The notes under the pieces were generated by a model. That model searched no databases. It was not told the origin of the DNA and saw nothing but the letters and a program-made list of their open reading frames with translations. A stretch of DNA of 51,638 nt from Phoronis australis. Taxonomy: Eukaryota > Animalia > Phoronida. Both the position numbers and the translations under genes were made by a program. Positions 3,271 through 32,149 of this stretch are shown piece by piece; position 1 is the stretch's first letter; each line of letters begins with the position of its first letter. The stretch spans positions 37,649-89,286 of the forward strand of contig NMRA01000699.1 of the NCBI GenBank assembly GCA_002633005.1. Direction: 5' to 3'.

Positions 3271-3996
3271 TTCATTTATTGCTGACTTCTCAACATTTGC
3301 CCTCACGAATACTGCAAAGACTTTATAAATTGTATCTGATGAGACAGACTTTGTATCAGTTTCATATAAGCATTGGTTAGCATGAGAATAATTCATTTTG
3401 AAACAGGACGCAGAATAATAAACGTCTACATGACAACTCGTCTGGCGCCAATCCCGACTTACATGTAGTCAAGAGTTCATCAGACGAAGACTTCACGAAT
3501 CGAATCGTTAGGATTCAGAGGCTATCAGTTCGAACCGGAATACACAGAAAAAAATACTAGAGAGGCGCCGTGAACATGCACATGCAACGGAACGTATGGA
3601 TAGTTCTTTGGTAAGCCGGAATTCGTCAGAGAAATCACTGTCTACGAAATGTCGGACCGGACACGGAGGTGTTTCATCTTCCTCATACTTGCTATTAACA
3701 GCGTACCTTTCATTCTTCTCTACCGCGAGACACTTCCTAAGCATTTAGGGCTCTCGAGTAGAAAAGCGATATTTCGCGCTTGCATTCCAGCTTCAAAGTT
3801 CGGACAAGCGGGAACGATGCACCGCAATGTAACGGCATTCACTCTACAGATGAACCACTGACGTCGCTGCGTCGTTTCACACCTTCCTCAAAGCTTAACA
3901 CGACACCTCTCGGCAAGGTGAGGTCAACCGTATAAGATGTGGACATAGACCGATTAAGACGGTAAAAAGACTAATTAAATCGGGTGGCATTGTCCT
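3271..3996 (-). mobile_element. Non-autonomous Kolobok-like element, copy 1 (one end truncated)
   Basis: Aligns by eye with 11514-12276. Ends GGGTGGCATTGTCCT followed by TTAA (3997-4000). THAP stub on minus strand (MLRKCLAVEKNERYAVNSKYE). Confidence 0.75.
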
Positions 3997-4004
3997 TTAA
4001 AGAC

Positions 4005-11513: not shown

Positions 11514-12276
11514 AGGAGAATCCCGCCCACAGTGATTTATTCATTGCTGACTTCTCAGAACATTTGTGCCCGTGAATACTTCAAAGGAATTACACATTGT
11601 ATATATAATGAGACAAACTTTTTTATGTAAGCATTGGTTAGGGTGAGAACAATTCATTTTGAAACAGAACGCAGAATAATAAACTTCTACATGGGAACTC
11701 GCCGGGCGCCAATTCCGAAGTAGTGGAGAGCTCATCGGACGAAGACGTCACGGGTCGGATCGGCGTTAGGTTTCAGAGGTTATCAGTTCGAACAAGAATA
11801 CACTGATCCCTAAATAATAGAGAGGCGCCGTGAACATGCACAGGCAACGGAACATACATGTATGGATACAGTAGTATTTTGGTAAGCCGAAAATCGTCAG
11901 AGAAATCACTGTCGATGAAATGCCGGCTACAGAAGCGGAGATGTTTCACGGCCTCATACTTGCTATTGACAGCTTACTTTTCATTCTTCACTACCGCGAG
12001 CCACTTCCCAAGCATTTTGGACTCTCGAGGAAGTCGAAAAAACGATATACCCGCTTTTCTCGCAGCTTCATAGATCCGACATGGAGAAAAGATCCACCGC
12101 AATATAGCGGAATTCACTCTGCAGATGAACCACTGACATCGCTGCGTCGTTTCTTACCTTCCCACACAGGTTAAAGGGACACCGTTTGGCAAGGTGTTAT
12201 CGACCGTATAAGAGGCGATGTTGATATAGACCGAGTAAGACGGTAAAAGACAAATTAAATCGGGTGGCATTCTACT
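11514..12276 (-). mobile_element. Non-autonomous Kolobok-like element, copy 2 (full length, ~760 bp)
   Basis: TIRs AGGAGAATCCCGCCC and AGTAGAATGCCACCC (rc), flanked by TTTA and TTAA. THAP stub on minus strand; GYQFE-type stub on plus strand. Confidence 0.8.
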
Positions 12277-13559
12277 TTAAAACTGTAAGACAGGATCGTT
12301 GGACAATTTGCCACCCCTAAAGTGACATCTGTTGCTGGATACTGGGTTCACGAAAAACGTGGAATTCAGGTGAAAATAAAAAATGACTTAAAGAAATGCG
12401 CCTTACTTAATGACACTAATCTAAACATGAATAAAACGACATTTGAATCAAAACCAAGCACTTAATCGGTGATACAGTGTTCCAAACAGGTATCGGTATT
12501 GAAGGTAATTTACGCCTACGTGGTTGCCACTAGTTTGCGATTTCTTTAACGATATACTCTCTACCAGAAAATTATATTGTATCAATCAACTCAACTGAAA
12601 TAGAAACGTCTTGTGAAAAAGGCTGGAGTTGATTAGTGCTGGGCCAGCTGAGATATACGGGGTCAAAATGCGGGGAAATTGCAATGGTTTGTAAACCTCT
12701 GACAATAAGCCTGAAATTTTGAACCTAGCGACAAAGTTAATGAGATTTATTTAAAAATTACAGACAAATAATTATCTTGTGCACCGCTACTTTCCATTAT
12801 GCATTACAAATAAGCCATTTTCGTTGCGTCTAGTGCATGGTTTACTCCCAAAATAGAGAGTCCCTGATTTTTCCTCCTGAAACAAAGTAAAAATTAATAA
12901 GATTTGACTTTACCGTTTTGTTTACCATCCCAAAGATACATAAAATCAGGAAGAGATAACCAGGAAGGGACAACTGTTTTAGCGCATTTTAACGGATATT
13001 CAGAAGTGATTTCAAAAGTAAATGTTAAAGTCGTCTGGAATCCAAGCATTGTGTTCCAAAGCTTAACTCTTTAGCTATAAAATGACACCACTTTGGTCCC
13101 CAAAGACTGCATATTAATGGCACTAGGATGCTTTGAACATGACTTGTTTTACCCTTAAAAAGATGCCTCTTCCCAGGCATGTACTCGGGCATGATCCTCT
13201 TTTTTGAACCAACAAATGTCACTTACATATGCAAATGAGGCTCGCATCTCCTACGTCATATGACGTCATACGACGCGAACACTCCGGTGCCTATAGCGAA
13301 TGACTTGAAACGCAGTTCTACCTGATTGGGCAGATCTAAGAAAATTAAGAACTCACACAAGTCAATGTTCAAAGAACATTGAATGGTTTCACATGAAAAT
13401 ACATTTAATTGTATTTGGATACGCTTGCATATGTGTAAGCGTGGACTTTGTCATTTTGCTTAAATCCAGATTTAGAAGCAAGTTAGTCAAGAAATAAGCT
13501 GCTCCCGCCACGGGTGGCAGGTGTCGTGGCGTCCGAGTCGCAGGGAAGTCCGATCCATG

Positions 13560-13666
13560 CATGCGCAATTCGATGAACTAATGCTAGTCGCTGGTCAGCT
13601 CCGCTATGATTCATGCGCAATTCGAAGAACTAATGCTAGTCGCTGGTCAGCTCCGCTATGATTCAT
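13560..13666. repeat. 52-bp tandem duplication
   Basis: CATGCGCAATTCGA(T/A)GAACTAATGCTAGTCGCTGGTCAGCTCCGCTATGATT at 13560 and 13612, one mismatch. Confidence 0.9.
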
Positions 13667-13689
13667 TTGAGACGTGCGACTTAGCTCGA

Positions 13690-14160
13690 ACCTATACCGG
13701 TGTTCTGGCTCCAAGGTCGTTCTGTTTGACCCAGTTTCGGGAAAAGTTTGTTTTAATACGGTCATTTCCTGAAGATTTTTTTGAAAGATATGATCTCGAA
13801 ATCCTTGGCCTATAGAGCTGTTGAAACACAGACACTGGTCCAGCTTCTTCCGCCGGGCGGCTGGGGAAAATGCTATGGAACGCGTGTCCCAAAAATGCAC
13901 ATACTTCAGCTCCTGCAGTTCAAGTTCTTTTCCCGTCAATCACTGTGCGCGGATTCTACGCGGGCAGCCAACACCTTATTTTTAACGTAGGTGCGCCACT
14001 GAGTCACGACGTGTCCAGCCTTTGCAGTATGCACGGGAATGTCAAGCAAACGATTCGGTTTGGAAGAACCTAAATTCATTGCACAATACTACTGGGAACT
14101 ACACTAAGCATCAAGGAAATGCAAAGACAATCTTTCCAAATTTACGACCAATGACTTGAA
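13690..14160 (-). pseudogene. Possible hAT transposase C-terminal remnant; part is homologous to 50048-50175
   Basis: Frameshifted pieces VSTA / KIFRK / RIKTNFSRNWVKQNDL resemble the hAT dimerisation motif. 14025-14155 clearly aligns with 50048-50175. Confidence 0.35.
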
Positions 14161-14459
14161 TTTCTTTTTCGATCCGATCTAGGGTTTGTAAATTTTTGAA
14201 TTTCTTTAGTCTAGTTTTTTTTTAAATTCAATACATTCATGAATATCACTGTTATCGTTTAGAATCCTTCTTTGCGATATGGTGGTCTGATGATGGTTCG
14301 AATTTTTGCAAGTCCGTCCTTCAGCCTTCAACTAAGTTCAGTGACGCATCGGCATTTCTTACAAGACAGCTCCTGTGCTGTGCACGAATGTTTTGTGTTT
14401 TTGATGAATTTGAAATCTCAACTTCCCCTCGTGTAGTTGGCAGTGTAATGTCGGAGGTG

Positions 14460-14530
14460 TATAGAGGGCCCAGCACTGAAAAAAGTGGGGGCTAAAGCCC
14501 CCTCAGCTCCCCTGCAGTGCACCGCCTATG
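14460..14530. mobile_element. ~70-bp mini-MITE
   Basis: ...CAGCACTGAAAAAAGTGGGGGCTAAAGCCCCC...GTGCACCGCCTATG; same family as 25400-25544. Confidence 0.65.
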
Positions 14531-14558
14531 GACCACTGAAAACCTTGAACTGAATAAA

Positions 14559-15142
14559 AGGAGAATGCCACCCGATTTAATTAGTCTTTTTTGCCTTATT
14601 AATTGGTCTATATCCACATCGCCTCGCACACGGTCGACCTTAACTTGCCAAGAGGTGTCTCGTTAACCTGTGAGGATGGTGACAAACGATGCTAGCGACG
14701 TCAGTGGTTCATCTGAACTAAATGAGAGTGAATGCCGCTATGTTGCGGTGCATCGTTCCCGCTTGTGGGAGCTATGCAGTTGCGAGGAAACCGGGAATAT
14801 CGTTTTTTCGACTTCCTCGAGAGTCCGAAATGTTTAGGAAGTGGATCGCAGTAGTGAAGAATGAAAAGTACGCTGTAAATAGCAAGTATGAGGCCGTGGA
14901 ACATCTCCTTGTCTGTAGCCTGCAGTGGTCGACAGCCGCGTGAGTGCCTGACGAATCCCAGCTTGCCAAATAACTGTCCCCACGTTCCGTTGTCTGAGCT
15001 TGTTCACGGCGCCTCTTTAGTATTTCTTCATCACTGTATTCCTGTTCGAACTGATAGCCTGTGAAACCTAACGATCCACCTGCGAAGTCTTCGTCGGGAC
15101 TGATGAGCTCTCGTCTAAGTCGCGGGGGATTGCGAGTTGCCA
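14559..15142 (+). mobile_element. Non-autonomous Kolobok-like element, copy 3 (runs into gap)
   Basis: Starts AGGAGAATGCCACCCG after TAAA. Plus strand has THAP start MLRCIVPACGSYAVARKPGISFFRLPRESEMFRKWIAVV. Minus strand has GFTGYQFEQEYSDEEILKRRREQ. Confidence 0.8.
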
Positions 15143-18100
15143 NNNNNNNNNNNNNNNNNNNNNNNNNNNNNNNNNNNNNNNNNNNNNNNNNNNNNNNNNN
15201 NNNNNNNNNNNNNNNNNNNNNNNNNNNNNNNNNNNNNNNNNNNNNNNNNNNNNNNNNNNNNNNNNNNNNNNNNNNNNNNNNNNNNNNNNNNNNNNNNNNN
15301 NNNNNNNNNNNNNNNNNNNNNNNNNNNNNNNNNNNNNNNNNNNNNNNNNNNNNNNNNNNNNNNNNNNNNNNNNNNNNNNNNNNNNNNNNNNNNNNNNNNN
15401 NNNNNNNNNNNNNNNNNNNNNNNNNNNNNNNNNNNNNNNNNNNNNNNNNNNNNNNNNNNNNNNNNNNNNNNNNNNNNNNNNNNNNNNNNNNNNNNNNNNN
15501 NNNNNNNNNNNNNNNNNNNNNNNNNNNNNNNNNNNNNNNNNNNNNNNNNNNNNNNNNNNNNNNNNNNNNNNNNNNNNNNNNNNNNNNNNNNNNNNNNNNN
15601 NNNNNNNNNNNNNNNNNNNNNNNNNNNNNNNNNNNNNNNNNNNNNNNNNNNNNNNNNNNNNNNNNNNNNNNNNNNNNNNNNNNNNNNNNNNNNNNNNNNN
15701 NNNNNNNNNNNNNNNNNNNNNNNNNNNNNNNNNNNNNNNNNNNNNNNNNNNNNNNNNNNNNNNNNNNNNNNNNNNNNNNNNNNNNNNNNNNNNNNNNNNN
15801 NNNNNNNNNNNNNNNNNNNNNNNNNNNNNNNNNNNNNNNNNNNNNNNNNNNNNNNNNNNNNNNNNNNNNNNNNNNNNNNNNNNNNNNNNNNNNNNNNNNN
15901 NNNNNNNNNNNNNNNNNNNNNNNNNNNNNNNNNNNNNNNNNNNNNNNNNNNNNNNNNNNNNNNNNNNNNNNNNNNNNNNNNNNNNNNNNNNNNNNNNNNN
16001 NNNNNNNNNNNNNNNNGGCATAACATTTCTGTAGCAGATAAAAGGTTGATTGGCGCAGGAAAAGGCCGAGGTCTTCAATGCTCAGAAAGATTTCGGCAGG
16101 CAAGAGACTTGCCAAGAAAATGACACAGTTGAGTCCGGGCATTCTAAAGGAAAGAACTGCAGCTAATTCCAGTTACTCGGTGCAACTTCTCTCACCCGAC
16201 GGCGTTGTTTCACAATACCGCAACCTCAAACAACGTCAAAGAAACGAAACGCGGAGGGTGAGATATTTCAGAGTATAAATATTTATTCTTGGATACAGGT
16301 GTCCAACTCAAAATGAATAACCCACGGTCATTCTTTATGCCGATAGCAATGTTTTCGCCAAAGAACAGGAATCGTAGACATCCCGCGTGCTCCGTCTATG
16401 GTTCTGACACTTCTAACTTTCAACACGATAGGTAGCCGCAGATAGTTGGATGTTGACCTCATTCTAATCTTCCCTGCAATCCACAGTCTGGGGACGAAAA
16501 CAATTCAAATCCGCTCCTCGAAATAGGGCTTGCTTAGCTGGAATTCAAAACTGCGGTCATGAGAGTGTTTTCACCTCCTGATTGCGAAGCGATCGAGTTA
16601 GCTGTGGTATCTTCATCAGCGCATGCTCTCAGCGGGAGGTCACCGCTTTATGCACTCAAGCGGTCGACAATAACTAAACTGACGAGTCTCAGAACTCCCA
16701 CATGCAAATTTGATATGCAACTGAGGTAGTACTTGACTACTGCGCCATCTATACATCGACGGAAAAGCTTAAATACCCGTGACTGCGTGTGGGAAATTGC
16801 GATTGCGTGCGCTGAAGTCGATATTTTCAAAGTACAATTACACCACTGTTTAAGGTTGAAAAGTGAGTTTTTTTGATATCCTTCTATAGAAAAAGCTTTA
16901 ATCTCTGTGATAAAATCATCTGTTTCCTTTTAAACGAAACTTAAGTCCTGAAATTAGGCCGGGTAAAGAGGCCAAAAACGGCGGTTTAGCTGATAAAATG
17001 CATAGTGTGGTTCAAATCCGTGACATTGGGTTTATCACCCCTTTGGGCATTTTTGCTGCTGGGAACCGTACTTCACTCTTAAATACTATTGTAACCTTAA
17101 GACTATGTATTGTTTTGATCCAAGGCTTAAGTTACCGTTACTTAATAGTTTTATTCGGTTACGTTGATCCAACCAAAAAACTTTACTTGGAAGTAAGTAG
17201 ACAGGAGGAACTGAAATATTACCATAGACTATTATTCATTTGCAATGATGGTTTGTAGAGGATGAATACCTCTTGCTTTTGATTTTCAAATGATATTGTG
17301 AATGTAGGTCACGTTTTGTAAAAAGTTCAATGGAAGCATACAACTCAGGAATCCTGTATAAGCCTGCAAGCTAATCCAGATACATCTATTATTAAATACG
17401 TGTACTTTGCCCTTAAAAGAAAAGAACAACTCTTACGTGTGTTGGCTGCGTGGTAAAGATGCCTGATTAATTTTTGTTTATTGCACTTTGGGCCAACGGC
17501 TTTTAATACAAAACAATTTGTGATATGATATATTTTTGTAAACCTTCACTGGTTGTTCTTCTTTCAAAAATATAGAGCTTTATTACATGTAGTTGAAAAA
17601 GCCCATTTTTTCATATACGAGTTAGACTGAAGATCAGTAAATATGGTTTCAGTTACCCCAAGTATGTGAGTAGCGACATCAGTGCTACCATGCATAGTTT
17701 AACGAACAAATGAACTTTGTGATGATTACGAAAAAAATTGACCTTAGCGATGATAAATTAAATCGGTATCAAACTGCAGCGACCATAACAGTAGAAGTGC
17801 TCCGATGATCCCAACTTTCAGAAAAGCTGAGATACGTTTAAGTCGCCTGACAGTAGGTTGTGAAAAAATTGTTGAGATTGAACTGGTGTCGTTGTAGGGA
17901 TATGGGACTACCAAATCAGACTTTTTGACAACTCTGGGGTGTTATTACATGCAGTCAGAGGAAGTCAGACTTTGCGTCTCCAATACACTTTGCCTTATTC
18001 ATTAGGGTCTGCATAAGGGCTGCTTTGGGGAAACTGTTTATAATGGATGGTAAAATGGGAAGCTCTATTAGGCACGCTGTTGCTAAAAATGACTCTTCAT

Positions 18101-18515
18101 GGTTCGCTGAGTGTGAGTTAGTGGCATGGGTCAACGACTGTGTAGGTGCAATGGAATGCAGTCACGCTGCTGTAAATATCCATTTTTAGATCAAATTGTA
18201 AGTGAATTGCAGAACGGTACACTGCATGTGAGTACACGTAGAATATCATTTCTAGTATATATCTTCAATGATGACTTTTTTCGCTTTAGATTCATAGAGG
18301 GCGTCCAACTGAAATAAGCAAGAAAGAATGATCAGAGCAGTTTTACAGTGACAATGGAAATTTCGTTTTTAGAAATACAAAAATGCTACATCAGATAAGA
18401 CTTTGAAATTAAGATAAACCTGGAAGTTGTATTCACAAAACGAAATGTTTGACGCTTTTCTCTAGCATTGGTTTCTAAGCAGATTTTCTAAGCTTCCAAG
18501 TCAACGTACTCCATC

Positions 18516-18670
18516 TTAAACGTATCCGTTTGCTTTACAAGAAAAACAGCACACATTGCGGATTGTTGAGTAGACGCAGACCGTTGGGTTGTCCTCTATC
18601 AAGAAGTCTGCGCAGTTTAGGTTGATTCCGGAACGAGTAACAATTCGTGCTCTTGGATTGTCCAGGCAAT
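18516..18670 (-). CDS. Secreted two-domain Cys-rich peptide, exon 3 (domain 2, stop)
   Basis: Acceptor cttcatctttcag, phase 1. Encodes DCLDNPRARIVTRSGINLNCADFLIEDNPTVCVYSTIRNVCCFSCKANGYV*. Confidence 0.8.
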
Positions 18671-19301
18671 CTGAAAGATGAAGTTTAAGAAAATGACGTA
18701 TTGTCATGAATGTATCTTTCTTTTTTGCTAAAATGTTAGTAAACATGGTCACGTGACCCACACAACAGAGCACAAGGAGACACTTATATGTCATAAAATG
18801 TAACAATTTTGGAAAATGTCATTTTTCATGAGTTCGCAGGGTATTTCTCACACGGAGGAAAACGGTTCACGCACTAAAAGCCTTCGTTCTATGATTGATT
18901 GAATGGAAATCTGTCAAATGTGCCAGTTGGGATTGCTAGATGCGTGCCAATGTGCTATCCATTTTCTTAACATGTTGTGTATCCTGCATTACAGTAAAGA
19001 CAATGACATCGAATTTGGCTAATAGTTATGTTATTTCTTCGGGAATATAAAAAACAATAACAAAAATTTTCACGCAAAATGGAATTTCGGAAGCCAATTT
19101 TCTAGAAAATAACTTGTTTTAGTCCACGATAATTTGATTCATTTCAGCCAGAGTTTTATTGCCTTGGAATCATCCCTGAGCAGTATTTGCCCTGATCCAA
19201 ACAAAAGGAGCACGACCCAAGTTTCTGATACTGACGGGTTCTATCTACCGCCATAGTTACGAGTGACAATTTCTTTAACACACTTTGGTGGGAGGATTTA
19301 A

Positions 19302-19480
19302 AAGAGAATATCACTCGATTTAATTAGTCTTTTTACCGTCTTAATCGGTCTATACCCACATCGCCTCGTAAACGGTCGACCACATCTTGCCGAGAGGTGT
19401 CGCGTTAACCTGTGAGGAAGGTGAGAAACGACGCAACGACGTCAGCTAGCGGTTCGTCTACAGAGTGTATGCCGCTATAT
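19302..19480 (+). mobile_element. Kolobok-like element, copy 4 (one terminus only) in intron 2 of the peptide gene
   Basis: TTAA|AAGAGAATATCACTCGATTTAATTAGTC... matches the start of copy 3. Confidence 0.75.
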
Positions 19481-19546
19481 TAGATTATTGCTGTCGTCTG
19501 TTTAAAGACAAAGGGGATAGGTAGGCTTCCTCCGGGTTCTACTCAC

Positions 19547-19699
19547 CTGGGGATGGCTTAGGTGGCTCAGGGTTGCTGCACGAATAACAACAGTCTGATA
19601 AGACATAATCTTTTGTGCACATCTTTTTCGCGGCCATTTGTGCACAGGTGACTTTCGTTCCGTCAGCCTCCACAAATACTTGCTTATTCACGCACTGGC
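19547..19699 (-). CDS. Secreted two-domain Cys-rich peptide, exon 2 (domain 1 plus Pro linker)
   Basis: 153-nt phase 1-1 exon, acceptor ...ccataaaaag (weak), donor CAG|gtgagt. Encodes GQCVNKQVFVEADGTKVTCAQMAAKKMCTKDYVLSDCCYSCSNPEPPKPSP. Confidence 0.8.
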
Positions 19700-20169
19700 C
19701 TTTTTATGGATAAACGAATAATATTAATATGACATGACACTCACCACGATGATCATGCACGTTATAGATCACATTTGTCTCCTGCAGTCAAACTAACGTG
19801 TCCAGTACTGTACTTCACTAAACTTTTAGTAAAAGTATGAAAACCGTTAATTCTGCCAAACGACAATTAAGTGTCCATGTCGATCACTCACGGTTGTAAA
19901 ATTGGTCTCACATTAACCAGTAACGACATTATAATGCGTTGGTGCGCTTGCAAACAACCAGAAATTCCATGAACTGACAATGCTGGATTTTCTGACCAAT
20001 ATCTTAATTTCGAGTCGCGGTTTGAGCTAACAATTCATGAACTGAGGAAATAACAAAACGTCTTGGCACGAACGCTTTATATCGAACAGTTTGCCGTGTG
20101 GTTATACGAAGTAGCATCCAATATACGAATATGCCATTCTCTCACATGGAAGTGTTGATCCGTACTTAC

Positions 20170-20251
20170 CTCTTTTCACCACATTGATAACGCGTCCCCA
20201 AACCGCTAAGGGTGCCGCACCGACTAAAATGCACAGCAATAATATCTTCAT
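20170..20251 (-). CDS. Secreted two-domain Cys-rich peptide, exon 1 (signal peptide and propeptide)
   Basis: ATG at 20251; MKILLLCILVGAAPLAVWGRVINVVKR, then a strong donor GAG|gtaagt in phase 1. Confidence 0.8.
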
Positions 20252-20316
20252 CGCTTGCGGTTACATTAATCGCGAGCAGACTCACTAGCTCTCAAAGTAT
20301 AGTTGGTGAGAAACTG

Positions 20317-20324
20317 TTTATATA
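20317..20324 (-). promoter_or_regulatory. TATA box of the peptide gene
   Basis: TATATAAA on the minus strand ~65 bp upstream of the ATG. Confidence 0.6.
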
Positions 20325-21045
20325 CTGTTTGAAGGTGGTTTCGACGCGCAAGACGCCGTGAAAGGGCAGCTCTGACATGTCAATCGAGCTGACAAGTCAA
20401 GCCAATCACTGTTCAGGAACTAATAAGAGAAACGACAGTCCGCCTTCTTTGTTCCACACAAACTGTTTTGGGTACAGAAAAAATAAAAGCCGTAAACATT
20501 AATTAAACATCATGTTGACGTGTTTCGTACTCGTTTTATTTGCTAAGTGCAGGCAACAATGTTTAAAGGTACCTGTTAAAACAACCTAGGTATTGTTTGA
20601 GGAAAAGTCTTTCATACATGTAGTTCGTGGCAATGGTGATCAAGTAAAATTTTCACTCACTACAAACTGTTTGTAGTAAATGAAATTTTTATCTGATAAC
20701 CCAGAGATTATTTTTGTAAACAACGAGTAGGCATTGTTGTTGAAATTTTATGTCATTGTTTTTTCAAATAAATCTGCAAATTAGTCAAAAATGCACAACT
20801 ATTGACGTTTAGAAAGTATAATTATGGAACGCTAGAGGGAAATTGCCAAGTTAACTTATTCAGAAAATCATTTCTTCAACCTCCTGCACACCAGGTCCTA
20901 CTGACTACTAAAACTAGAATATGTTTATCAGATTGAGACCAACGTGAGGTCCTCTTCTCACCCCATCTCTCCCTTTCCAAGTGGAATTGTAACGTTTTCT
21001 CTCAGTTTTCACACAGAGATTCTTCGTCAAGTTTTCTCCCACACC

Positions 21046-21310
21046 CATGCGCGCACCCAGCCTTACGTATAGAGGGGCTAGGATTTTTCGGTGTGCGGAC
21101 CTTTTAGTGAAAGAAATCAACGAGGACTAAAAAACGAGGCCACTAGGTTCAGGCTCACGTATTGTGCATCCGCGCAGACTTCCCGTGGGATTTTCTGGAT
21201 CCTTTTCTCGTTTACGCAGACTATTTGTTTCACTGACGCAGACTTTTTTGCCCAATTCGCCAAACTGGGGGCTCGTTCAAGCTACCTGAACTTCCTTGGG
21301 TGCGCCCATG
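21046..21310. mobile_element. ~260-bp MITE with CATGCGCGCACCCAG TIRs, copy 1
   Basis: CATGCGCGCACCCAG...TTGGGTGCGCCCATG; flanks ACACC and ACACT. Confidence 0.75.
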
Positions 21311-21960
21311 ACACTTTATTTTATTAACATTACAAGCAACTCTGAGTTCCCCGAAGACAACGAAATTAAACTTGATAACTAACAACGTAGAGTAGGCAAT
21401 AATTGCCAGTTGCGTTGCGACTATCTATGTCGCAGAACCCTGATCCCCGCTAGGGAGGGTAATCCTGCTGACCAATTTGTTTACGAGACGTAGGTGCATC
21501 TGAACTATGTGTCATTCCATTCAATTCTGGAAATAAGGGGCAACAGATGTGAATCGGTTTCGCAAAATTACGCTAGGTTGGTAGCCGCCTACGGACAAGG
21601 AAAAAACAAAAATATCTTGTGGCATATTTTTGTATCATGTGTTATTGCGTAAAAAGAATCAACATTAGTAGCTGTACATATGGAATCGTCACCCACATGA
21701 TCGTAGATCTTATCAACAGCACTGTGCTTGTAACGCGTTTAAAAACGCATCCGTGATACATTGACACGTTATACTTATGCAAGTCATGCGCCAGAAAAAC
21801 ATTTCTTGTCACGTGAATCGTGCACTGGCATGATTGCGATGAATTCTGGTTCTCGTGACAACGATTAATAATCAAACAGTGACAATTAAAAATAGGCATA
21901 AACGTACTGCATCATACGACAACGAGCGGAGACTGCGCTACAACAAAGTACGGCCATGTC

Positions 21961-22216
21961 CATGCACGCACCCAGGGGGTGGGGCTCGGGGGGCTCGAAG
22001 AAGCCCCCCCCCATTTGGCGAAGTGGGCAAAAGGGCCGCCTCTGAGAAACAAAACGTCCAAGAAAATGAGACAAAAGTCCACTAAACAAGCACAAACGCG
22101 CAATTCACAGCGGTGCCCCCCTTTTTTCTTTTTTAGTCCGCCCGCTTTTTTGTTACCAAAAGGTCCACTAGGTCAGGAAGTCGAGCCCTCCTTATTGAAG
22201 ACTGGGTGCGCGCATT
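21961..22216. mobile_element. ~260-bp MITE, copy 2 (opposite orientation)
   Basis: CATGCACGCACCCAG...CTGGGTGCGCGCATT; flanks ATGTC and ATTTC. Confidence 0.75.
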
Positions 22217-22608
22217 ATTTCGCCATAAGGCAATGAAACATAGTCTTTTTTCTGTGAATACATTTATTTTGCCAGAAATCCAAATATTCATGAATATGGC
22301 TGGGGTTGAGTGATCCCAACTACGTATATCCTTACAATATAGAATGCATAATACAGACCTGGGTAATTTGGAAAAGGAATCATAGTGGTTGGGCGTACAA
22401 CTGACATGGGAATGTTATAGAAGAGGGTTAGAGGGAGGACAAAAGGAAGGACTTTCGTACACACACGCATTCATTCACGCGATTAAAGTTAACTTTTATT
22501 TGCACTTACATGTACATCAAGTTATCTAAATAAAGACGGTTACTTAACAGAAATTACGTCGGACGTTTTGTTTGAGTAGGCTGGTGAAGGTACGGTGGGT
22601 ATCAATAA

Positions 22609-22686
22609 GGTTAGAAACTCGAACCAGTCTTCATTCTGTCGTGGCACCGAAATTTATCAGCGTCGGTCGGTAACCACTTGAGCCCC
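22609..22686 (-). mobile_element. tRNA-derived SINE-like head
   Basis: Minus strand has A-box-like GGGCTCAAGTGG and B-box-like GGTTCGAGTT; no complete cloverleaf. Confidence 0.45.
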
Positions 22687-23540
22687 AAACACGGGTAAAA
22701 ACATGACAACCACACACGACTTTCTTCAAAGTTACGTAGAAACCGAATAAAATGATATGAAAGAAGACTCTTTCATGGCATAATTGCCCTTGACATGTTT
22801 CCTTTTAAGAATTATTTCGTTACCTAAAATGATAGGACTGTATTGTACATGTCGTGGCGTCGTAAAATAATGATTTACCCTGGTTGAATTTAAAAAGTTA
22901 CAGAGCACCTTTTTAACTATGGGAACTGGACTAAATATTTTACAATTGAGAATGCCCAATCTTGCCCGAATATAAAGGTTCAATATTTTCCATTTTAGCG
23001 TCTTCAGATGAATATTGAATGAAAAAATGAGGTCACCGCTAACTAATCCTTATTAAACAAGTAATTTAATGTAGGTTTGCGTGTTTGGCTAAATGCTGAG
23101 AATTACACTGTAGGCAGCTTTTCTTGAACCGATGTCCAGTTGTCAACATGTTCGTCGTCTAACCGTGTTGAACTCTATAAAACTTGAAAGAATAGAGGTA
23201 TTGACTAGAAAGCACCAATTCCAAACCTTTTCAACACGATTTTTGTAGTGTGTCCAACTTGGCTTATTGGACGAACACGTGTTTGAGATTGGGTTCAGTG
23301 TCAGTTACACGTATTTTCAACTGTGTCCAAACATGCCATAAATAGTCACCAGCATCTGCCATGTAATCTTAGAAATTCAACTTTGTCACCATCTGGAGCC
23401 AAGCGATAATCCGCCATTGCAATGCACAGCACTAAACATAGAATACAGGTAATACAGAAATAGATTCATCAATAGACCAATTTTTATTTGGCTATGTATA
23501 CAGAAAACTAAATAACCATAGCATAAGGACATTTAAACAT

Positions 23541-23820
23541 TAGCTGACCAGCAGCTAGTAGAGTTTCTTAAATTCAGATTTCTACGCAATCAGTGGGCGT
23601 GAGATGTCAGCCCTGCACAGTTATATTTCACCGGATGCAAGCAGCGCACCATTGTTTGAGGCGAGCCCGTGCTTGAGGGTTGTGGTGGTCCAAAACGAGG
23701 GCCCCGCTTCGTTAGACAAGGAATACAGTGTAGCAACATGTGCTCAAACTGTACTGAGAAATCAAAGCAGGCCAGAAGCCTCAATTGAAGGTGACCTACA
23801 TGTACAGCGTATTCTAGACA
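23541..23820 (+). repeat. Dispersed ~300-bp repeat, copy B
   Basis: Homologous to 5814-6130 in the same orientation. Confidence 0.75.
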
Positions 23821-25399
23821 CACTTTGGCAGGGGTCAGTAAGCTGAATGGCATCAAGAGGCCCGTACCCAGCATTGCGCGGGGGTGGTTCGAATTGCTAG
23901 ATCGGCGGACCTTTGCAAACGTCGACTCTATAGAGTTTTCGGTAAGGCCCTTGACGCAGCGTATTTAGGGGGAAGGGAAATTTGTACACACCACGATGAC
24001 TCTCAGCGCTATGCTCCTGAGATGACATGGAATCCGTAGTATCAGAATGCCGTGATTAAATGAGTGATTACACCTCATTTCATACTGGGACTCAAATGTG
24101 GCTTGAATTTTTTATGGTTGGATTTTGCGTGTCTCTTAAATTGCTTACAAGCGGTAATGGGAACAGGTCACTTTACCGAATATTCACTACTCTCAAGGTT
24201 CATTACACTGAAAATATCTAAAAATTTCGGGTCATTTGTACTTTTTATAATTTTACACGCAAAAATAAAGGATATTTTGGTTAGTAAATTCACTGAGTGG
24301 TGTCCCTGTACCCATTCATGCGCGTGTGAAATTGCCCGCATGCCTTACGAATACAGAACATGAGGACGGATTTGCATTTTTAAAAGAATATGAAGTAGGA
24401 ATATTGATGAATTATAAACCAAGATACATGCATCAAATCCATGCCAAGATGGCATCATTTCACATTCTAGGCCTATGCTCCTCACCCTCACCCACAGGAA
24501 TCAAGCACACAGCATGGTCGAAACTAAATGTAGTAATGAACTGCGGGAGTTCTGGTTTGTGGACATTCTGTAGTGAACTTTCGAAGGCACCGAACCCTCA
24601 GAATAGTGAAACTTCGGAGTAGTGACATGTACGTGTAACCTTGGAAATCTTCGTTTCCATCAAGTTTGTTGCTCGTTTGAAATATGCGTGGCTGTGCAGC
24701 ACGGCCCTGATTGACAAGAGAAGACTTTATCCATCGGTCAAAATTTTATTAGGTGTAAACCTACTTTTCTTTTATAGTACGAACATGCTCCTCGGGGTTT
24801 TTTAATGCAAGAAAAAACAGAAGTTTAATAGTCTGGATTTTGAGCACCGATGTAGCACTGCCTATAGTGAACTTAGCGTCGGCGTGCACTGAATTTAACA
24901 GAATGAAAACGCACACGCTTGTACACGCAAGCATCATCCAACATCCACTTTCAAATTGGACACTGGATGAACAACATATTTGACGATCACTTTCAATTCC
25001 AAATTTGAAAATGCCTGCACTATATCGTACTAAGCCAGCAAGTATAAAGTATAGCAAAATAGCAGACAGACAAGCTGCTTTCTGCTGTTTTGTTTGTTGG
25101 TCGATTTTAAAGCATTCTCACCGCACTACTTTTGGGACCTCCCTCGCCGCTATGTAGCCTAGCTACAGTAGGTATAGGCATTTACACCGTAGTTCTAGTC
25201 TCCCTTGTTACACTATGTTGTATCCATCACGCGTGTTCAGCGCCGATGAATATCATAAAACCTCCTCTCTTCGTCAGCGCGATCCTATCATCTACTCAAA
25301 CATCATTCGGGCGAAGTTGGAAGGGTACGACCTGTTGATTCCTTGAAACGCTTTGAATCGAATTAAAGAAAATTCAAAATTATTACTTAATTATCATTA

Positions 25400-25544
25400 C
25401 ATGGGCGGCGCAGCACTGACAAAAGAGGGGGCTAAAGCCCCCCCCCCAGACCCCTGTGGTGCACCGCCTATAGACCATGTGCGGCGTAGCACTGAAAAAA
25501 GTGGAAGGCTATAGCTCCCAGCCCCCTATGGTGCGTCGCACATG
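25400..25544. mobile_element. Tandem dimer of the ~70-bp mini-MITE with 5-bp TSD
   Basis: Units 25400-25472 and 25476-25544; CATTA flanks both outer ends. Confidence 0.75.
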
Positions 25545-25869
25545 CATTATATAGTTAGTAGTATCAGTAGTAATTGGAACAATGTTGTCCATCTGTATCC
25601 TTATCTTTAACGGATAGGCTGGGACTGGACCTTTCCTGCGGGGGTTCGATGGAACACCCCGAACAACCCTTGGCCGTGTACGTGATGAAAGCTACATGTA
25701 ACATTTACACGAACTTGGAAGACATTGCCCAACCAAAAATTTACATGTTGAGAGGTGTTCCATATTTTTTTTCAAATCCAAGATTGAGACTGGGTTGCAA
25801 CAGTTGCAAGAGGACGATATTATAAGCCAGATGCTCCGCAGCATCTGGGCTTCTCTCAGCACTTAAGAA

Positions 25870-27480
25870 ATCTGTAGAAGTACGCATATACGGTTATAAC
25901 AAAGTTTCCACAAAACCCGTGATGCAAGTCGATTGCTACCCACTACCCAAGGCTGAAGCCATCTTTGCATTCTAGGAAATTTTCTGAGATTGGCCTCATC
26001 AGTGCTTATAATGAAGATGGAAGACAGTTCCAAGGATTTATAACAGTTAACTCTCACAAATGGGTCATTTCGTTATATCGTTATGCCTTTTGGCGTTGCC
26101 TCAGCACCAGATTTTCAATGTCGTAAAGAACGATGAACCAAGTGCTTTAGAATGTGCCATTTATTTCATGTATTCTGAATGACATGAATATCAACGGGCG
26201 GACTGTTTACTGTTTGGATCGTCTGAAAAGCTACAGTCTGAAAGATCAGTTTACTGTGAACACGTTACAACGACACAAGGTCTGCACAAGGTGTCAGATC
26301 AGGTGAGTGCAATCCCCAATGCCCCGAAACCCGAGAACCAACAAAGCGTCGTTCCTGTCTGGAACTAGTCAACATTTACCACCGCTTCATTCTACATTTG
26401 ACTACGCCCGACGGCCCCATTCGCGAATTTCTACTACTCGAAAAACCTTGTTGCTGGACCACAAGTCTCTAAAGTCATTCCAAGAAGTGAAGAAGTTGAT
26501 GACATCAGACCAAGTCATCACGACCCCAATCTACCTGTGAGATTGGCGTGTGATGCTTCGCCTTACGGACTTCAATATGCGTGATCCAATGAACTTATCG
26601 CTTTCGCATCTTGCTAACTTAAAAAGTCTGAGAAAGGGTATGACGAGATAAAAAAGACGCGTTGGCAACCAGAAGTTCCTCACAAATGTGTTCGGGCGTC
26701 ACTTTAGATTAGTGACGGATCATAAAACGTTGCTGAGTATTTTGCATCCGTATTGTGATATTGGATATTTTTACAAATCTTACATTGGATGCCAGAGAAT
26801 TTAAAAGTTGCCTTCTGCAGTCCCCGTCCAGTGGAAGTGGTCATCGACTCCATGCAATCGCCATGTTGATTACAGTGGTCCTTTAGTCAACCCAATAGGC
26901 GGAAATGGTGGCGATGAAATCGAGAAGCTAAGTACCGTACACAGTGCTAGGTACAGTATAGGCATTTCACTCGAGTCTAACTACCCGAGGTAGTTGTTTC
27001 TAACAATGCACCTCAATTCTTATGCAATGAATTCACTTTGTTGTAAAGTCAAATGTATACGTCACGTTACGTCTGTTCCATGTCAAATCCGGCATCAAAT
27101 TACGGTCTGGCTGACAAGTTGGTGCAATCCTTCAAGCTGGTCATGAAGCAGAACAGAGATGGCAAGCACTCTGTGCACCATAAGCCAAGTACTTACATCA
27201 GTTTAAGCTTCGCATAACACCTAATGCCTTCACAAATTCAACTCCTGCTAAGCTGATATTTGGTAGGAACCTCAGAAGACGTCGCAAATGCTTAAAACCA
27301 GAGAACGACAGGACGACACTCTCTTTACATTATGGGTCTGAATTGGGCCATCCCTTGCCCGGTCATCCATTTAGAATTAGATTTCTGGTCGTGTTGCTGT
27401 GAAAAATGCATGGACAACGAAAAAAAATGGACATAGAGGGTGGAATTACTTGGCGGCGCATGGTTGATCAAATGCAGGAT
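25870..27480 (+). mobile_element. Decayed Ty3/Gypsy LTR retrotransposon pol (RT - RNase H - integrase)
   Basis: Frameshifted motifs in Gypsy order: TVNSHK..PFGVASAP (RT); LACDASPYGL, IAFAS, FGRHFRLVTDHK (RNase H); HVDYSGP, NNAPQF, LVQSFK, TPAKLIFGRNLR, WRRMVDQM (integrase). Confidence 0.85.
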
Positions 27481-30400
27481 TCACCGGCGGCTACTCCACC
27501 TTTCTTCGTCGATTGCGCAATTTCCTGACCAATACGACCACTTCAAACGAAACAAACACCAGAGCTTCGGTCTTGACTGACTGCGCTACTGCACAACTTG
27601 GCCAAGGTCCGCGATAAAAAGAAGTTGCTAGAGACACCGCCAAAATTAAGTGAATGCCTGATCGATTTAAAAACACTTTAGCTGAGTTTTGTTTTCGAAA
27701 ACTGATTCTTAATCGTTTGGTAGACTTGTTGTCAAATGCAAGAGTGTTGTGTTTGGCGTAGTGATATCTTAAGAAAACAAATAGCTCCCATAATGACTGT
27801 CCCATTATTAAAAACAAGTTATAGCTAAATACAGCCGTAATACGTTGGGTAAACGTTTGACGAAGTCCCCTTCCCCTACCTTCGTACGGGACTTCATGCA
27901 TACGCGCACATCAGTCACAGACCATCACTACATACTTGTGTTGGCCCATTCTGCAGTTTTTGCAAACGGCGAGTTTCAAAGAAATTTGGATTGTGCTACT
28001 TCACAGTTGTTTCAAAACGTACCTCACAGATAATATCGTTATATTCTGTTCAGTTCACATTTTCTAAACAAGAATTTGCAATCCCAAACGAATGAAATCT
28101 ATAATTAAAAAGGCCACTTGCAAAAACGCGACTCTTTTGTCTGTTTCTGTTTTCGCCAGAATAAGATAAGTGTTGCTTTCGTCTCTAAATGGCATTCAAT
28201 TAAAAGCTAGGAAAGTAGGTAACTTTTGAAAATTTTTCACAAGTCACGATATCAACTTACAACAGAATTACTCAGCGATAAAAAGGCGACGAGAGTAATA
28301 CATTTGTGTTGAAAATGTTGAGACATGTGCATATAATCCCGACTTCTTCCATTAAATGCATGTTTTTGTTTTGGTTAGGAACTGGTACTGCATTTTGCTT
28401 CACTTGGGCCTTGCAATTTGCAGATACAACAGGCACATTTTAATTAGCAAAACGTGGGCAAAATTGTGTTCCAAGGGTTAACTACCTTCTGCAGCGTGTC
28501 TGTAAGTACTGATTTACGCACAGGTTATGTGCCTAATACATGTGCGTGTAAGGGAGATAACTCAAAAGACGACGGATAGATCGGAGTTTAATAATGCAAG
28601 CAATGACTTCTCGGGTGTTAGGAGCAGACTGACATCAATGTTTGTTAGATCTGTTCAATTTGTTTGAGCTACAAGCATACATTGAAAGATTAGCACTTTA
28701 TCGGCTTCCAAAAGTGAGATCAGGGTGGAGTTCAGTAGCTGTCTCGCAACCAGAAATATCCGGCCCAAATCAGCTTTTCTCATTTAAAATAACTAACATA
28801 ATATCTCTGAGCCTTGCATTTTAGTACGGTTCTCGCGTGGACCCTAGCGTTACTGAACTTTACCCAGGCCAGTGATTATGTCATAGCTATTTAAAAAATG
28901 ACCTGTGAGAATATTTTGTAGAGTAAGATTCAACGTACATCAGCGATTGGTATAAAACCATGGTTTGGAACATTCTATAGCCTCGAATAAATGTTTGTAT
29001 TTGTAGAAGGATTTGGTAGATGACAGAACGTCGTAAAATGTGACTGAATTGCTGAACATTACCAGAAACTTAACAAAGATTGTCACACGCAGGCACGAGT
29101 TAAGGAGAGTGGCCAGTTACCTAGTCAATAGGGATCCAGTTTAAGAGACAACAAGTCCCTGCATTAGTTATTAAACAGTCAAAGTGCAGGAGAAAGTGAC
29201 ACAACAGTTCTTCAAAACCTCGCAGCACTGGCTGGAGAGTTAGAACAAAAATCACAAAGGACATCATGCTTGAAAGGGTTTTGTACGTAGAGAAAAGTGA
29301 TTGCCGCGAACCAGGATTTAGTATACAATGGCACTGAAAGCCATTACCACCTGACTGTGAGGTCATGCGCCCACCCACCATAGGAAAAACGTGACATTTG
29401 AGTGGCGGCAACTTCCATGTATTAAACAAAAATAGAACTGATAGACCGGGATCCCAGAGCTTTTTTGGCCATGAAAAGGTAACCAATATTCTTTGGTGCC
29501 ACAGTGCTGCATGTACATGTGTATATGGGTATCCTCATGCTTGAAATTGGCATTCTGTCAGGTTCACTCTGGTGGGTGTGGTCAGGGAAGCCAAGAGAAT
29601 GACACTCAAAAATTGAGCTCAATCAAGTTTTCTGGTGACCACTTAAAACTGCCTTCGATACCTACTACGTAATCCACTGTATCAAAATTGGTCACTACCA
29701 GACAATTTCACAGTGCTGAAGTGGTAAAATTAGAGGTAAGTAGGCGCCCAATGGCCGCCGTATCACCTTGAGCACTGGACGTAACTTACGTTGCGTAGGC
29801 GCTACGTTCAAATGCTAAAAGGTGGATGGCTGCGCCTACGTGCCCCTGCGCCCCACTACAGCACTACAATTTCATTTGTGGGAGAATCAACCAGACGGTT
29901 ATAAACAGGGTAAAAATTGAGACAGGTCAATCCATGAGGTAACCGCATGAAACCCGTTGCAAAATGTTCACCGTGAGCCCAGGTATCAACAATAAACGCT
30001 GGCAGACAAATCTAGTGGTGTGTTAGTCCCGCCAGACACGCCCAAATACCCGAGTTGAGCTAGATCAACTCACTAGGTAACCNAAGTAGGCGCCCAATGG
30101 CCACCGTATCACCTTGAGCACTGGACGTAACTTACGTTGCGTAGGCGCTACGTTCAAATGCCAAAAGGTGGATGGCTGCGCCTACGTGCCCCTGCGCCCC
30201 ACTACAGCACTACAATTTCATTTGTGGGAGAATCAACCAGACGGTTATAAACAGGGTAAAAATTGAGACAGGTCAATCCATGAGGTAACCGCATGAAACC
30301 CGTTGCAAAATGTTCACCGTGAGCCCAGGTATCAACAATAAACGCTGGCAGACAAATCTAGTGGTGTGTTAGTCCCGCCAGACACGCCCAAATACCCGAG

Positions 30401-30974
30401 TTGAGCTAGATCAACTCACTAGGTAACCGTTGGAAACAAATTGCCCGATGTTCAGCATCACTGCACATGGCACAACAGTTGGATGCCAGAAAATTTCAGT
30501 GGTGGGGTGCCCCTGTCAGACGATTATTCAAAAGGGTTAAAATTTGAGCTATATCAACCCAAGAGGTATACGCATAAAACCAGTTGCCAAAATATTCACC
30601 GTAAGCTCAGGTACGAATAAACACTGCCAGACCAATCTAGTGGTAATTTAGCCCCCCCCCCAGACACGCCCAAATATCTGAGTTGAGCTAGATAAACTCA
30701 CCAGGTAACCATTTGAAACCAACTGCACGATGTTCAGTTCACTATTAAGATGCCAGACAATTTCAGCGGTGGGGTGCCCCTGCCTGAAGATTATAAAAAG
30801 GGCTACAATTTGAGCTAAATCAACCCAAGAGGTAACCGCATGTACTCGTTTAAAACCATTTTCATAATGTCTAGCAGAATGCATGCAGCAAAAGGTACAT
30901 TACAGTTAATTTCAGAACGGACGACTCTTTATTGGACGCCCCCCTCTCTCTACTCAAATTCAAGTACCCTAGTA

Positions 30975-31430: not shown

Positions 31431-32149
31431 TTTTTAATTTTTTTTAAGAGAAACTATTCCAGCGACAGAAGAACGTGTAGAATACACAGCTTGACTGCTA
31501 TTGAATTGTCGTCTGGGAGATGCTGGAGCCAAGCCATTCATACATCTGTACATACATGTACAACAGGCAGAGGGATCTTTATTTCTTTGTTTTACTTTCA
31601 TAAATCCCAGCTTGGAATACAAGTCATCGACGTTGGTGTCCCTAATGCTAGTACCCAGGATAGCCCTGGCAGCTCTATTTTAGATTACTTGTACTTTTCT
31701 GACAAGTGTGTCACTAGTATGCCCCCAAACCGGTAAACAATAATCAACATGAGGCTGAATAATAGATAAGAGTATTGACGAACCGGGCCTCGCTAACATC
31801 TTTGAGCNAAGCCATTCATACATCTGTACATACATGTACAACAGGCAGAGGGATCTTTATTTCTTTGTTTTACTTTCATAAATCCCAGCTTGGAATACAA
31901 GTCATCGACGCTGGTGTCCCTAATGCTAGTACCCAGGATAGCCCTGGCAGCTCTATTTTAGATTACTTGTACTTTTCTGACAAGTGTGTCACTAGTATGC
32001 CCCCAAACCGGTAAACAATAATCAACATGAGGCTGAATAATAGATAAGAGTATTGGCGAACCGGGCCTCGCTAACATCTTTGAGCTTGATTTTTGAATAC
32101 ATGTGGCACACAACTTCAGTGACTAAACCGTCAACGATGCTGCACATCT

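What the first reader, a model, noticed from the sequence alone, without database searches (positions are those of the whole stretch)
18516..20324. Hidden 3-exon gene for a secreted prepropeptide with two tandem C-C-C-CC-xx-C domains (candidate toxin or defence peptide)
Seen: a TATA box, then exons 20251-20170, 19699-19547 and 18670-18516 splice in frame (both introns phase 1) to a 129-aa protein. It has a hydrophobic N-terminus, RVINVVKR, domain 1 (C-x15-C-x8-C-x8-CC-x2-C), a PEPPKPSP linker and domain 2 (C-x17-C-x11-C-x8-CC-x2-C). Established: signal + dibasic site + disulfide-rich domain is the usual layout of animal toxins, antimicrobial peptides and peptide ligands, and the CC-xx-C ending recalls PLAC-type modules. 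Inference: a standalone two-domain peptide of this frame may be an undescribed family. The ORF track shows only exon 3, so automated annotation could miss it.
Basis: partly seen in the sequence, partly recalled or inferred. Interest (0 to 1): 0.8.

Follow-up and report, generated by a model that had tools for sequence, protein, structure and literature searches.

The report
Free-standing PLAC-like secreted peptide gene
A likely marine invertebrate has a small intron-split gene predicted to make a secreted protein of two six-cysteine modules, which likely belong to the PLAC-like class normally found as tails of large matrix proteins, so it is likely a small binding protein and nothing yet shows that it is a toxin.

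Summary
The gene model is in the sequence as described: TATA box, three minus-strand exons with GT-AG phase-1 introns, 129 aa, signal-like N-terminus, KR, and two exon-sized C-C-C-CC-xx-C modules. Chance gives 0.02 such motifs per window. RNA shows only weak, same-strand exon coverage; neither junction was seen, and the one joint found skips exon 3 into an unannotated downstream exon, probably from a related transcript. The module is not new as a frame. It matches an unnamed secreted 8-repeat protein (E 1.2e-4), and through it the tail repeats of limpet M12B metalloproteases. A limpet repeat resembles PLAC by predicted structure, and the exon-3 model is hairpin plus three helices. The modules themselves miss Pfam PLAC and ShK, carry a long first loop, are near neutral and lack a Lys-Tyr dyad, which weakens the toxin or cationic antimicrobial reading. 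Best reading: a free-standing, likely KR-processed, two-headed PLAC-like binding protein of mucus or matrix. It is a new variant of a known module, with untested function.

The parts
20317..20324 (-). TATA box (TATATAAA), about 70 nt upstream of the ATG
   Evidence: sequence
20170..20251 (-). Coding exon 1: predicted signal peptide (residues 1-19, 20251-20195) and 8-residue pro-region ending in KR (20194-20171); phase-1 donor GTAAGT
   Evidence: hydropathy 2.2-3.4 over the first nine 9-residue windows; -3/-1 rule fits after residue 13 or 19; about 129 read bases in 20180-20313 and about 11 in the next bin, run X6 only
19700..20169 (-). Intron 1, 470 nt, GT-AG, phase 1
   Evidence: depth 0 in all 4 runs over 19912-20045; junction not listed
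19547..19699 (-). Exon 2: module 1 (Cys 19694-19578, spacing 15-8-8-0-2) plus Pro-rich linker; phase 1 at both ends
   Evidence: one-strand RNA depth in 3 of 3 raw-read runs, much of it partial matches; 12.5 bits on the HMM of P0009 repeats, 7 of 500 Cys-fixed shuffles as high
19297..19481 (.). Dispersed repeat inside intron 2 (80-82% identical to three other places in the window); not part of the protein
   Evidence: dominates RNA depth on both strands
18516..18670 (-). Exon 3: module 2 (Cys 18668-18537, spacing 17-11-8-0-2) and stop codon
   Evidence: hit P0009 at E 1.2e-4; AF2 model pLDDT 70.9 with hairpin and three helices; RNA depth about 1 over its 5' part, almost none over 18516-18571
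18197..18308 (-). Candidate fourth exon: either a 3' UTR exon after exon 3 (possible donor GTACGT at 18509) or an alternative last exon that adds 4-5 residues to exon 2, giving an 83-aa one-module form; 3' end uncertain
   Evidence: acceptor at 18309 has 17 of 20 pyrimidines; one X8 contig (depth 69) joins 19560 to 18314 with only 22 letters on the short side; 18 and 13 one-strand reads with 4 differences near 18197-18240 in X5 and X6

Best explanation
This is an intact small gene predicted to make a secreted protein of two likely PLAC-like six-cysteine modules joined by a proline-rich linker, which would act as a two-headed binding protein in mucus or extracellular matrix. Shown: the exon layout, reading frame, cysteine spacing, near-neutral charge, and sequence kinship to a secreted all-repeat protein. 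Inferred: the signal peptide is cut after residue 19 and a convertase cuts after KR, releasing 102 residues. Each module would close three disulfides around a short three-helix core, with a beta-hairpin inserted in the long first loop. The gene likely arose by exon shuffling and duplication of the phase-1 module that lophotrochozoan M12B proteases carry in their tails. The free modules would bind the kind of extracellular protein or glycan partner to which such tails dock, acting as adaptor or competitor. A one-module form from this gene or a paralogue likely exists too.
For: Gene model and chance control. One-strand RNA on exon bins with empty intron-1 bins. Of 1.84 billion proteins, 2 passed E 0.001 with module 2; one, P0009, is a signal peptide plus 8 repeats of spacing 16-18/9-12/6-8/0/2. 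An HMM of those repeats ranks exon 3 and exon 2 first and second among 1719 window segments (E 2.3e-5 and 0.018; next 0.28), and module 1, which was not the search query, beats 493 of 500 Cys-fixed shuffles. Profile comparison of both modules with P0009: probability 82.6%. P0009 has a sub-threshold Pfam PLAC match (19.1 bits, cut-off 26.4). A profile including P0009 finds two limpet M12B proteases with tails of such repeats. For one limpet repeat, 5 of 10 Atlas structure rows align to a PLAC part at TM 0.51-0.58. The module-2 model has helices 19-26, 28-32 and 34-40. PLAC is described as a six-cysteine region of about 40 aa at the C-terminus of extracellular proteins, and a PLAC cysteine is essential in C. 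elegans DYF-4 (PMC8221789, passages).
Against: Neither module hits Pfam PLAC or any family convincingly. The direct link to the limpet repeats does not exceed cysteine spacing (190 of 500 and 87 of 500 shuffles as high; probability 13%), so the PLAC link runs through P0009 and a limpet homologue. All Atlas PLAC rows are under that tool's bar for naming a family. The helical model leans on aligned homologues: the other four models score 56-62, pTM is 0.43, and the single-sequence model was all-beta at pLDDT 59.7. No solved structure matched (0 of 48,161 at Z 2 or more). No binding partner or tissue is known. A signal-KR-disulfide layout is more typical of bioactive peptides than of matrix adaptors (established knowledge), and P0009 has no such pro-region. 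No splice junction was observed.
Confidence: 0.45

Rival explanations
1. A defence or toxin-like peptide of mucus: KR cleavage releases disulfide-stapled modules that act on microbes or on predators' ion channels, like ShK-fold peptides, from a fast-diverging paralogue family.
For: Signal-pro-KR-disulfide layout. Hints of diverged related transcripts: 12 of 15 X7 reads differ at 19567 and match only about 46 bases each; an X8 contig of depth 69 matches only the end of exon 2. The Atlas feature search puts a limpet repeat nearest ShKT clusters (0.78-0.81, lead only). Coral antimicrobial peptides carry ShK domains (PMC12496222, passages), and lack of the dyad does not exclude channel activity (PMC6409789, passages).
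Against: Modules are near neutral (K+R 6 vs D+E 5, and 5 vs 4; pI about 7.8), whereas antimicrobial peptides are generally cationic (PMC12496222). No adjacent Lys-Tyr pair. No hit to any solved toxin by sequence or fold. Very low expression in three RNA runs of unknown tissue. Dyad-less six-cysteine repeats in limpet mucus proteins and nematode mucins are read as non-toxic (PMC7333891, passages).
Confidence: 0.25
2. A disulfide-rich neuropeptide or paracrine ligand, made in few cells, processed at KR and acting on the animal's own receptor.
For: Dibasic site and very low whole-sample expression fit a rare cell type. In Nematostella an ShKT-motif peptide is a neuropeptide and the ancestor of a venom paralogue (bioRxiv 10.1101/2020.05.28.121442, abstract).
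Against: No conserved orthologue was found across animals, as would be expected of an old ligand (module 2 only). No clear amidation signal on the 129-aa form. Closest relatives are multi-repeat or protease-tail proteins.
Confidence: 0.15
3. The three-exon, two-module form is minor or unused: the working product is a one-module 83-aa peptide (exons 1, 2, 4), or this copy is a weakly used paralogue of a better expressed gene.
For: The only joint listed skips exon 3 and lands within 6 nt of the strongest acceptor of the region (chance about 0.019). Exon 3's last 55 nt have 7 read bases in total. No AATAAA or ATTAAA between 18516 and 18000.
Against: Exon 3 keeps an open frame, all six cysteines, a good acceptor (16 of 20 pyrimidines) and the better match to the family. 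The joint has only 22 letters on one side, unknown letters between, and comes from a contig only guessed to be RNA.
Confidence: 0.12
4. The exons are the tail of a longer metalloprotease or matrix gene.
For: The same module type forms tails of limpet M12B proteases.
Against: Own TATA box, upstream in-frame stop, signal-like exon 1 with no good acceptor before it; no HExxHxxGxxH in six frames of 13000-26000; tblastn of both limpet proteases on the window gave one weak hit (E 0.089) in repeat DNA.
Confidence: 0.03

Closest known systems
Unnamed secreted 8-repeat protein P0009 (433 aa, JGI/IMG; cluster of 3)
   Same: Signal peptide followed only by C-x(16-18)-C-x(9-12)-C-x(6-8)-CC-x2-C modules; long first loop with a conserved Gly; C-x-S/T-C ending; no catalytic domain
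   Different: 8 modules rather than 2; no KR pro-region; no Pro-rich linker; about 31% identity; itself unnamed and uncharacterised
Tail repeats of limpet M12B (reprolysin/ADAMTS-like) proteases P0012 and P0013
   Same: Six-cysteine CC-xx-C modules in tandem, separated by flexible linkers, extracellular
   Different: Attached to a 940-aa protease; first loop mostly 8-10 residues; direct similarity to the window modules does not exceed cysteine spacing
PLAC (protease and lacunin) domain, Pfam PF08686, of ADAMTS, ADAMTS-like proteins, papilin, C. elegans MIG-17 and DYF-4
   Same: Six cysteines in about 40 aa, extracellular (PMC8221789); homologues give weak Pfam and structural PLAC matches
   Different: Here free-standing, doubled and behind a KR site rather than a single C-terminal tail; first loop 15-17 residues (PLAC about 6-7, recalled); no Pfam hit for the modules themselves
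ShKT family (ShK, ShK-like neuropeptides, damicornin, AmAMP1, aurelin)
   Same: Small secreted six-cysteine helical module, alone, in tandem or on protease tails (PMC6409789); nearest clusters by language-model features for a limpet repeat (lead only)
   Different: Ends in CC-xx-C rather than the ShK C-xxx-C-xx-C (spacing recalled), so the C1-C6, C2-C4, C3-C5 pairing cannot be assumed; no Lys-Tyr dyad; near neutral; no Pfam ShK hit
Conotoxin framework XXIII (K-superfamily, im23a)
   Same: Same order of cysteines, C-C-C-CC-C (PMC4278219, passages)
   Different: That toxin is a helical hairpin with I-II, III-IV, V-VI bonds; no sequence or fold match in PDB searches; likely coincidence

Membership tests
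PLAC domain (PF08686) | Six cysteines in about 40 residues, extracellular | tested here: met
   39 and 44 residues from first to last Cys; signal-like N-terminus; definition from PMC8221789
PLAC domain (PF08686) | Score above the Pfam gathering threshold | tested here: not met
   No PLAC row for either module at E up to 10; homologue P0009 reaches 19.1 of 26.4 bits
PLAC domain (PF08686) | Sits at the C-terminus of a large extracellular protein | tested here: not met
   Standalone 129-aa gene; no protease exons nearby
PLAC domain (PF08686) | PLAC fold and disulfide pairing | tested here: inconclusive
   Only a limpet homologue was compared, TM 0.51-0.58 between predicted models, under the naming bar; own model helical at pLDDT 70.9; pairing not examined
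ShKT (PF01549) | ShK cysteine spacing and Pfam match | tested here: not met
   Ends in CC-xx-C; no ShK row
ShKT (PF01549) | Lys-Tyr functional dyad of channel blockers | tested here: not met
   No adjacent Lys-Tyr in either module; its absence does not exclude activity (PMC6409789)
ShKT (PF01549) | ShK helical fold | tested here: inconclusive
   No match at Z 2 or more among 48,161 chains, a weak test for 40-residue domains; feature score 0.81 for a homologue is within chance range
Cationic antimicrobial peptides | Net positive, amphiphilic mature peptide | tested here: not met
   Net charge about +0.7 and pI about 7.8 for each exon product
Cationic antimicrobial peptides / toxins | Measured antimicrobial or toxic activity; gland or mucus expression | not testable with these tools
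   Needs bench work; tissues of runs X5-X8 are not given
Conotoxin framework XXIII (K-superfamily) | Sequence similarity to im23a-type peptides | tested here: not met
   No such row in PDB sequence searches at E up to 10
M12B/ADAMTS-like protease | Reprolysin catalytic domain in the same gene | tested here: not met
   No zinc motif in 13000-26000 and no tblastn support in the window; a motif split by an intron would be missed by the motif scan
Prepropeptide | Cleaved signal peptide and convertase cut at KR | tested here: inconclusive
   Hydropathy and -3/-1 rule fit; no SignalP, ProP or proteomics available

The most novel reading that the evidence does not exclude
The first member of an undescribed family of free-standing, convertase-processed PLAC-fold peptides in a lophotrochozoan. 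A protease-tail module would have been recruited by exon shuffling into a fast-diverging set of one- and two-module secreted defence or signalling peptides, giving a disulfide-permuted cousin of the ShK scaffold with a hairpin insert.
Probability: 0.2. Interest if true: 0.65.

Novelty: new variant of a known kind. Interest (0 to 1): 0.36.

Why it matters
PLAC tails occur on many matrix proteases and ADAMTS-like proteins, yet the passages I read give only genetic or indirect hints of what they bind, and no solved structure matched here. A natural mini-protein made only of such modules is an easy object for structure and partner-finding. If it proves bioactive, it would add a new three-disulfide helical scaffold and another case of a protease-tail domain recruited as a free peptide, as known for ShKT. 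If it is only a mucus or matrix binder, it is one more unannotated small cysteine-rich gene of an invertebrate.

Tried and rejected
Pfam: no meaningful family for either module; the DnaG zinc-ribbon row (E 0.073) is a cysteine coincidence. PDB sequence searches: 1 chance row for module 2, 0 for module 1, 0 for P0009, 4 chance rows (chemokines, an isomerase) for the profile. Word-index search with module 2 among 89-2000 aa proteins: no candidate. P0008, one of the 2 hits, is a cysteine-free repeat protein and was rejected as spurious. The profile search covered only 759-2165 aa proteins, so small standalone relatives were not sought with a profile; module 1 was never searched alone against the large libraries. 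Single-sequence fold: low confidence, all-beta, not used. Fold searches of the alignment-based model: 0 of 23 Foldseek rows at E 0.001 or better, 0 of 48,161 and 0 of 23 at Z 2 or more; this shows neither a new fold nor absence. Atlas on the C-terminal part of P0012: no usable hit. No paralogue in the window by tblastn, HMM or blastn; no whole genome is held, so paralogues elsewhere are unexamined. Run search: no RNA holder listed in the index, which is no evidence either way. Only one laying of reads was obtained, so junctions below 3 reads and the loose ends at the exon borders were not seen. Literature: 'PLAC domain' + 'ShKT' gave 0 papers. None of the 20 rows or the 15 rows contains 'PLAC domain'. 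One search gave 6 papers on ADAMTS-type proteins, protease inhibitors and synaptic domains. 'CCXXC' gave mainly IGFBP papers. I found no description of a free-standing PLAC-only peptide in these searches (listings only; open-licence library only; no supplements read). Earlier scan notes held nothing on this sequence or on P0009.

Full report
Observation. On the minus strand, TATATAAA at 20324 precedes exon 1 (20251-20170), exon 2 (19699-19547) and exon 3 (18670-18516). The donors are GTAAGT and GTGAGT, both acceptors end in AG, both introns are phase 1, and the frame gives 129 residues. Cysteine spacing is 15-8-8-0-2 and 17-11-8-0-2. These two modules are the only matches to a loose C-C-C-CC-xx-C pattern in six frames of the window. 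In 150 Markov-2 random windows, 3 had one match and none had two. Each module fills its own exon, and the two modules align to each other (25% over 36 residues), which points to exon duplication (inference). The N-terminus is hydrophobic and fits the -3/-1 rule after residue 13 or 19; no dedicated signal-peptide predictor was available.

Host. No genome is held. An exon of the neighbouring gene has 7 hits among 59 candidates at 54-64% identity; the 4 named ones are from a scallop, Lingula, a crinoid and Owenia. The host is therefore likely a marine invertebrate. Earlier unchecked scan notes on this genome guess horseshoe worm, lophotrochozoan, mollusc or echinoderm. My data do not decide among these.

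Expression. Three raw-read RNA runs (about a fifth of each read) and one contig set were laid on 17500-21500. Most laid reads come from a dispersed repeat in intron 2 (19297-19481). Over exon 2 (bins 19510-19777) all three raw runs show depth on one mate direction only, the direction expected for minus-strand RNA in the usual stranded protocol; strandedness of these libraries was not shown independently. Bin 19912-20045 in intron 1 is empty in all four. Exon 1 is covered only in X6, by about 129 bases plus 11 in the next bin, as expected for a read ending at the donor (inference from one read). X6 also has about 54 bases inside intron 1. Exon 3 has depth near 1 in its 5' part and 7 bases in total over 18438-18571. 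No junction of the model reached the 3-read listing threshold, so splicing is unverified.

A related transcript and a fourth exon. Much of the exon-2 signal is partial: in X7, 12 of 15 reads differ at 19567 and match about 46 bases each. One X8 contig of depth 69 matches 33 bases at the end of exon 2 and then 22 bases starting at 18314, skipping exon 3. That landing point lies within 6 nt of an acceptor at 18309 with 17 of 20 pyrimidines, the strongest of the region (3 sites of 16 or more in 2047 nt; chance about 0.019). X5 and X6 have 18 and 13 one-direction reads with 4 differences near 18197-18240. The simplest reading is a diverged paralogue or allele with one module, and a fourth exon here that is either a UTR exon (possible donor at 18509) or an alternative end giving 83 residues. 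This rests on a short match in a contig only guessed to be RNA.

Relatives. Module 2 against 1.84 billion representatives gave 2 hits at E 0.001 or better. P0008 is a cysteine-free repeat protein and is spurious. P0009 (433 aa, unnamed, cluster of 3) is a signal peptide plus 8 repeats with spacing 16-18/9-12/6-8/0/2. An HMM of these 8 repeats ranks exons 3 and 2 first and second of 1719 window segments. Module 1 scores 12.5 bits, reached by 7 of 500 shuffles that keep the cysteines in place. Module 2 scores 24 bits (0 of 500), but it was the query that found P0009, so that figure is biased. A profile of both modules with P0009 and P0011 found 2 of 2366 candidates among 759-2165 aa proteins: limpet M12B proteases with an ADAMTS cysteine-rich domain and tails of CC-xx-C repeats. 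Against my reading, an HMM of the 12 limpet repeats alone does not score the window modules above their cysteine spacing (190 and 87 of 500), and the pair probability is 13% against 82.6% for P0009.

Fold. P0009 has a sub-threshold Pfam PLAC match, and 1 of the 5 rows of alignment A3 (not module 2) matches PLAC at E 0.009. For a limpet repeat, 5 of 10 Atlas structure rows align to PLAC parts at TM 0.51-0.58, all under the tool's naming bar, and the top 3 feature rows are ShKT clusters at 0.78-0.81, a score a third of shuffled proteins reach. AlphaFold2 on module 2 with 4 aligned relatives gives strands at 8-10 and 16-18 and helices at 19-26, 28-32 and 34-40, pLDDT 70.9 for the best model, 56-62 for the others, pTM 0.43. 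Without an alignment it gave a low-confidence all-beta model. No solved structure matched by sequence or fold, a weak negative for so small a domain. So the modules look like PLAC with a hairpin in a lengthened first loop, but they fail the Pfam test and are not filed as members.

How it most likely works. Shown: gene anatomy, cysteine frame, charge and kinship to P0009. Inferred: secretion, removal of an 8-residue pro-piece at KR, three disulfides per module, and two heads on a Pro-rich spacer. PLAC is described as a six-cysteine tail of extracellular proteins, one of whose cysteines is essential in DYF-4 (PMC8221789, passages). It ends MIG-17 and ADAMTS10/17 (PMC4856095, passages), and it may take part in Punctin-collagen binding (PMC13142758, passages). 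A bivalent binder in mucus or matrix is therefore my first choice (0.45). The toxin or defence reading (0.25) has the precursor layout and the hint of diverged paralogues in its favour, and ShK-domain antimicrobials exist in corals (PMC12496222, passages). Against it are near-neutral charge, no Lys-Tyr pair and very low expression in samples of unknown tissue. Dyad-less six-cysteine repeats in limpet mucus are read as non-toxic (PMC7333891, passages), though loss of the dyad does not exclude activity (PMC6409789, passages). A neuropeptide-like ligand (0.15) has a precedent in Nematostella (bioRxiv 10.1101/2020.05.28.121442, abstract). A longer protease gene is unlikely. Conotoxin framework XXIII shares only the cysteine order (PMC4278219, passages).

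Novelty. The module type is present, unnamed, in databases, both on protease tails and as a secreted all-repeat protein. The new aspects are the one- or two-module size and the KR pro-region. My searches (listings only, open-licence library, no supplements) found no description of a free-standing PLAC-only peptide. The usual PLAC first-loop length and the ShK end spacing are recalled, not taken from a call. Verdict: a real gene, a new variant of a known module class, function untested; interest 0.36.

Noticed in passing
window 40047-37401 (-): Neighbouring multi-exon gene for a 'pathogen-related protein'-like, SnoaL-fold protein; exons at about 40047-39907, 39602-39369 and 37652-37401 match the Lingula protein at 44-55%.
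   Followed up: partly
window 19297-19481; also 3826-4001, 12101-12281, 14557-14744: Dispersed repeat of about 185 nt, 80-82% alike between copies, with high RNA depth on both strands from other loci.
   Followed up: partly
window 18197-18240 (-): 18 reads in X5 and 13 in X6 match about 38 bases with the same 4 differences, and 7 molecules in X5 begin at 18197: possibly the 3' end of a paralogue's transcript.
   Followed up: partly
window 29738-30383 and 31526-32081: Adjacent 99%-identical duplications of 300 and 278 nt, each next to a single N: likely assembly overlap artefacts.
   Followed up: no
window 29900-30841 and 34540-35180: Satellite-like repeats of about 140/280-nt period, present in inverted orientation about 4.5 kb apart.
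   Followed up: no
window 2416-2989: GIY-YIG-like fragment (2616-2873, Pfam E 0.14) between 107-nt inverted repeats of 93% complementarity: likely a retroelement or MITE-like remnant.
   Followed up: no
window 32313-33300 and 962-1273: Stop-interrupted ORF fragments without a Pfam hit that look like decayed transposon proteins (resemblance recalled).
   Followed up: no
P0009-P0011: Unnamed secreted proteins made only of 8 CC-xx-C repeats, on 1.4-kb contigs; a better expressed or easier object for studying this module than the window gene.
   Followed up: partly
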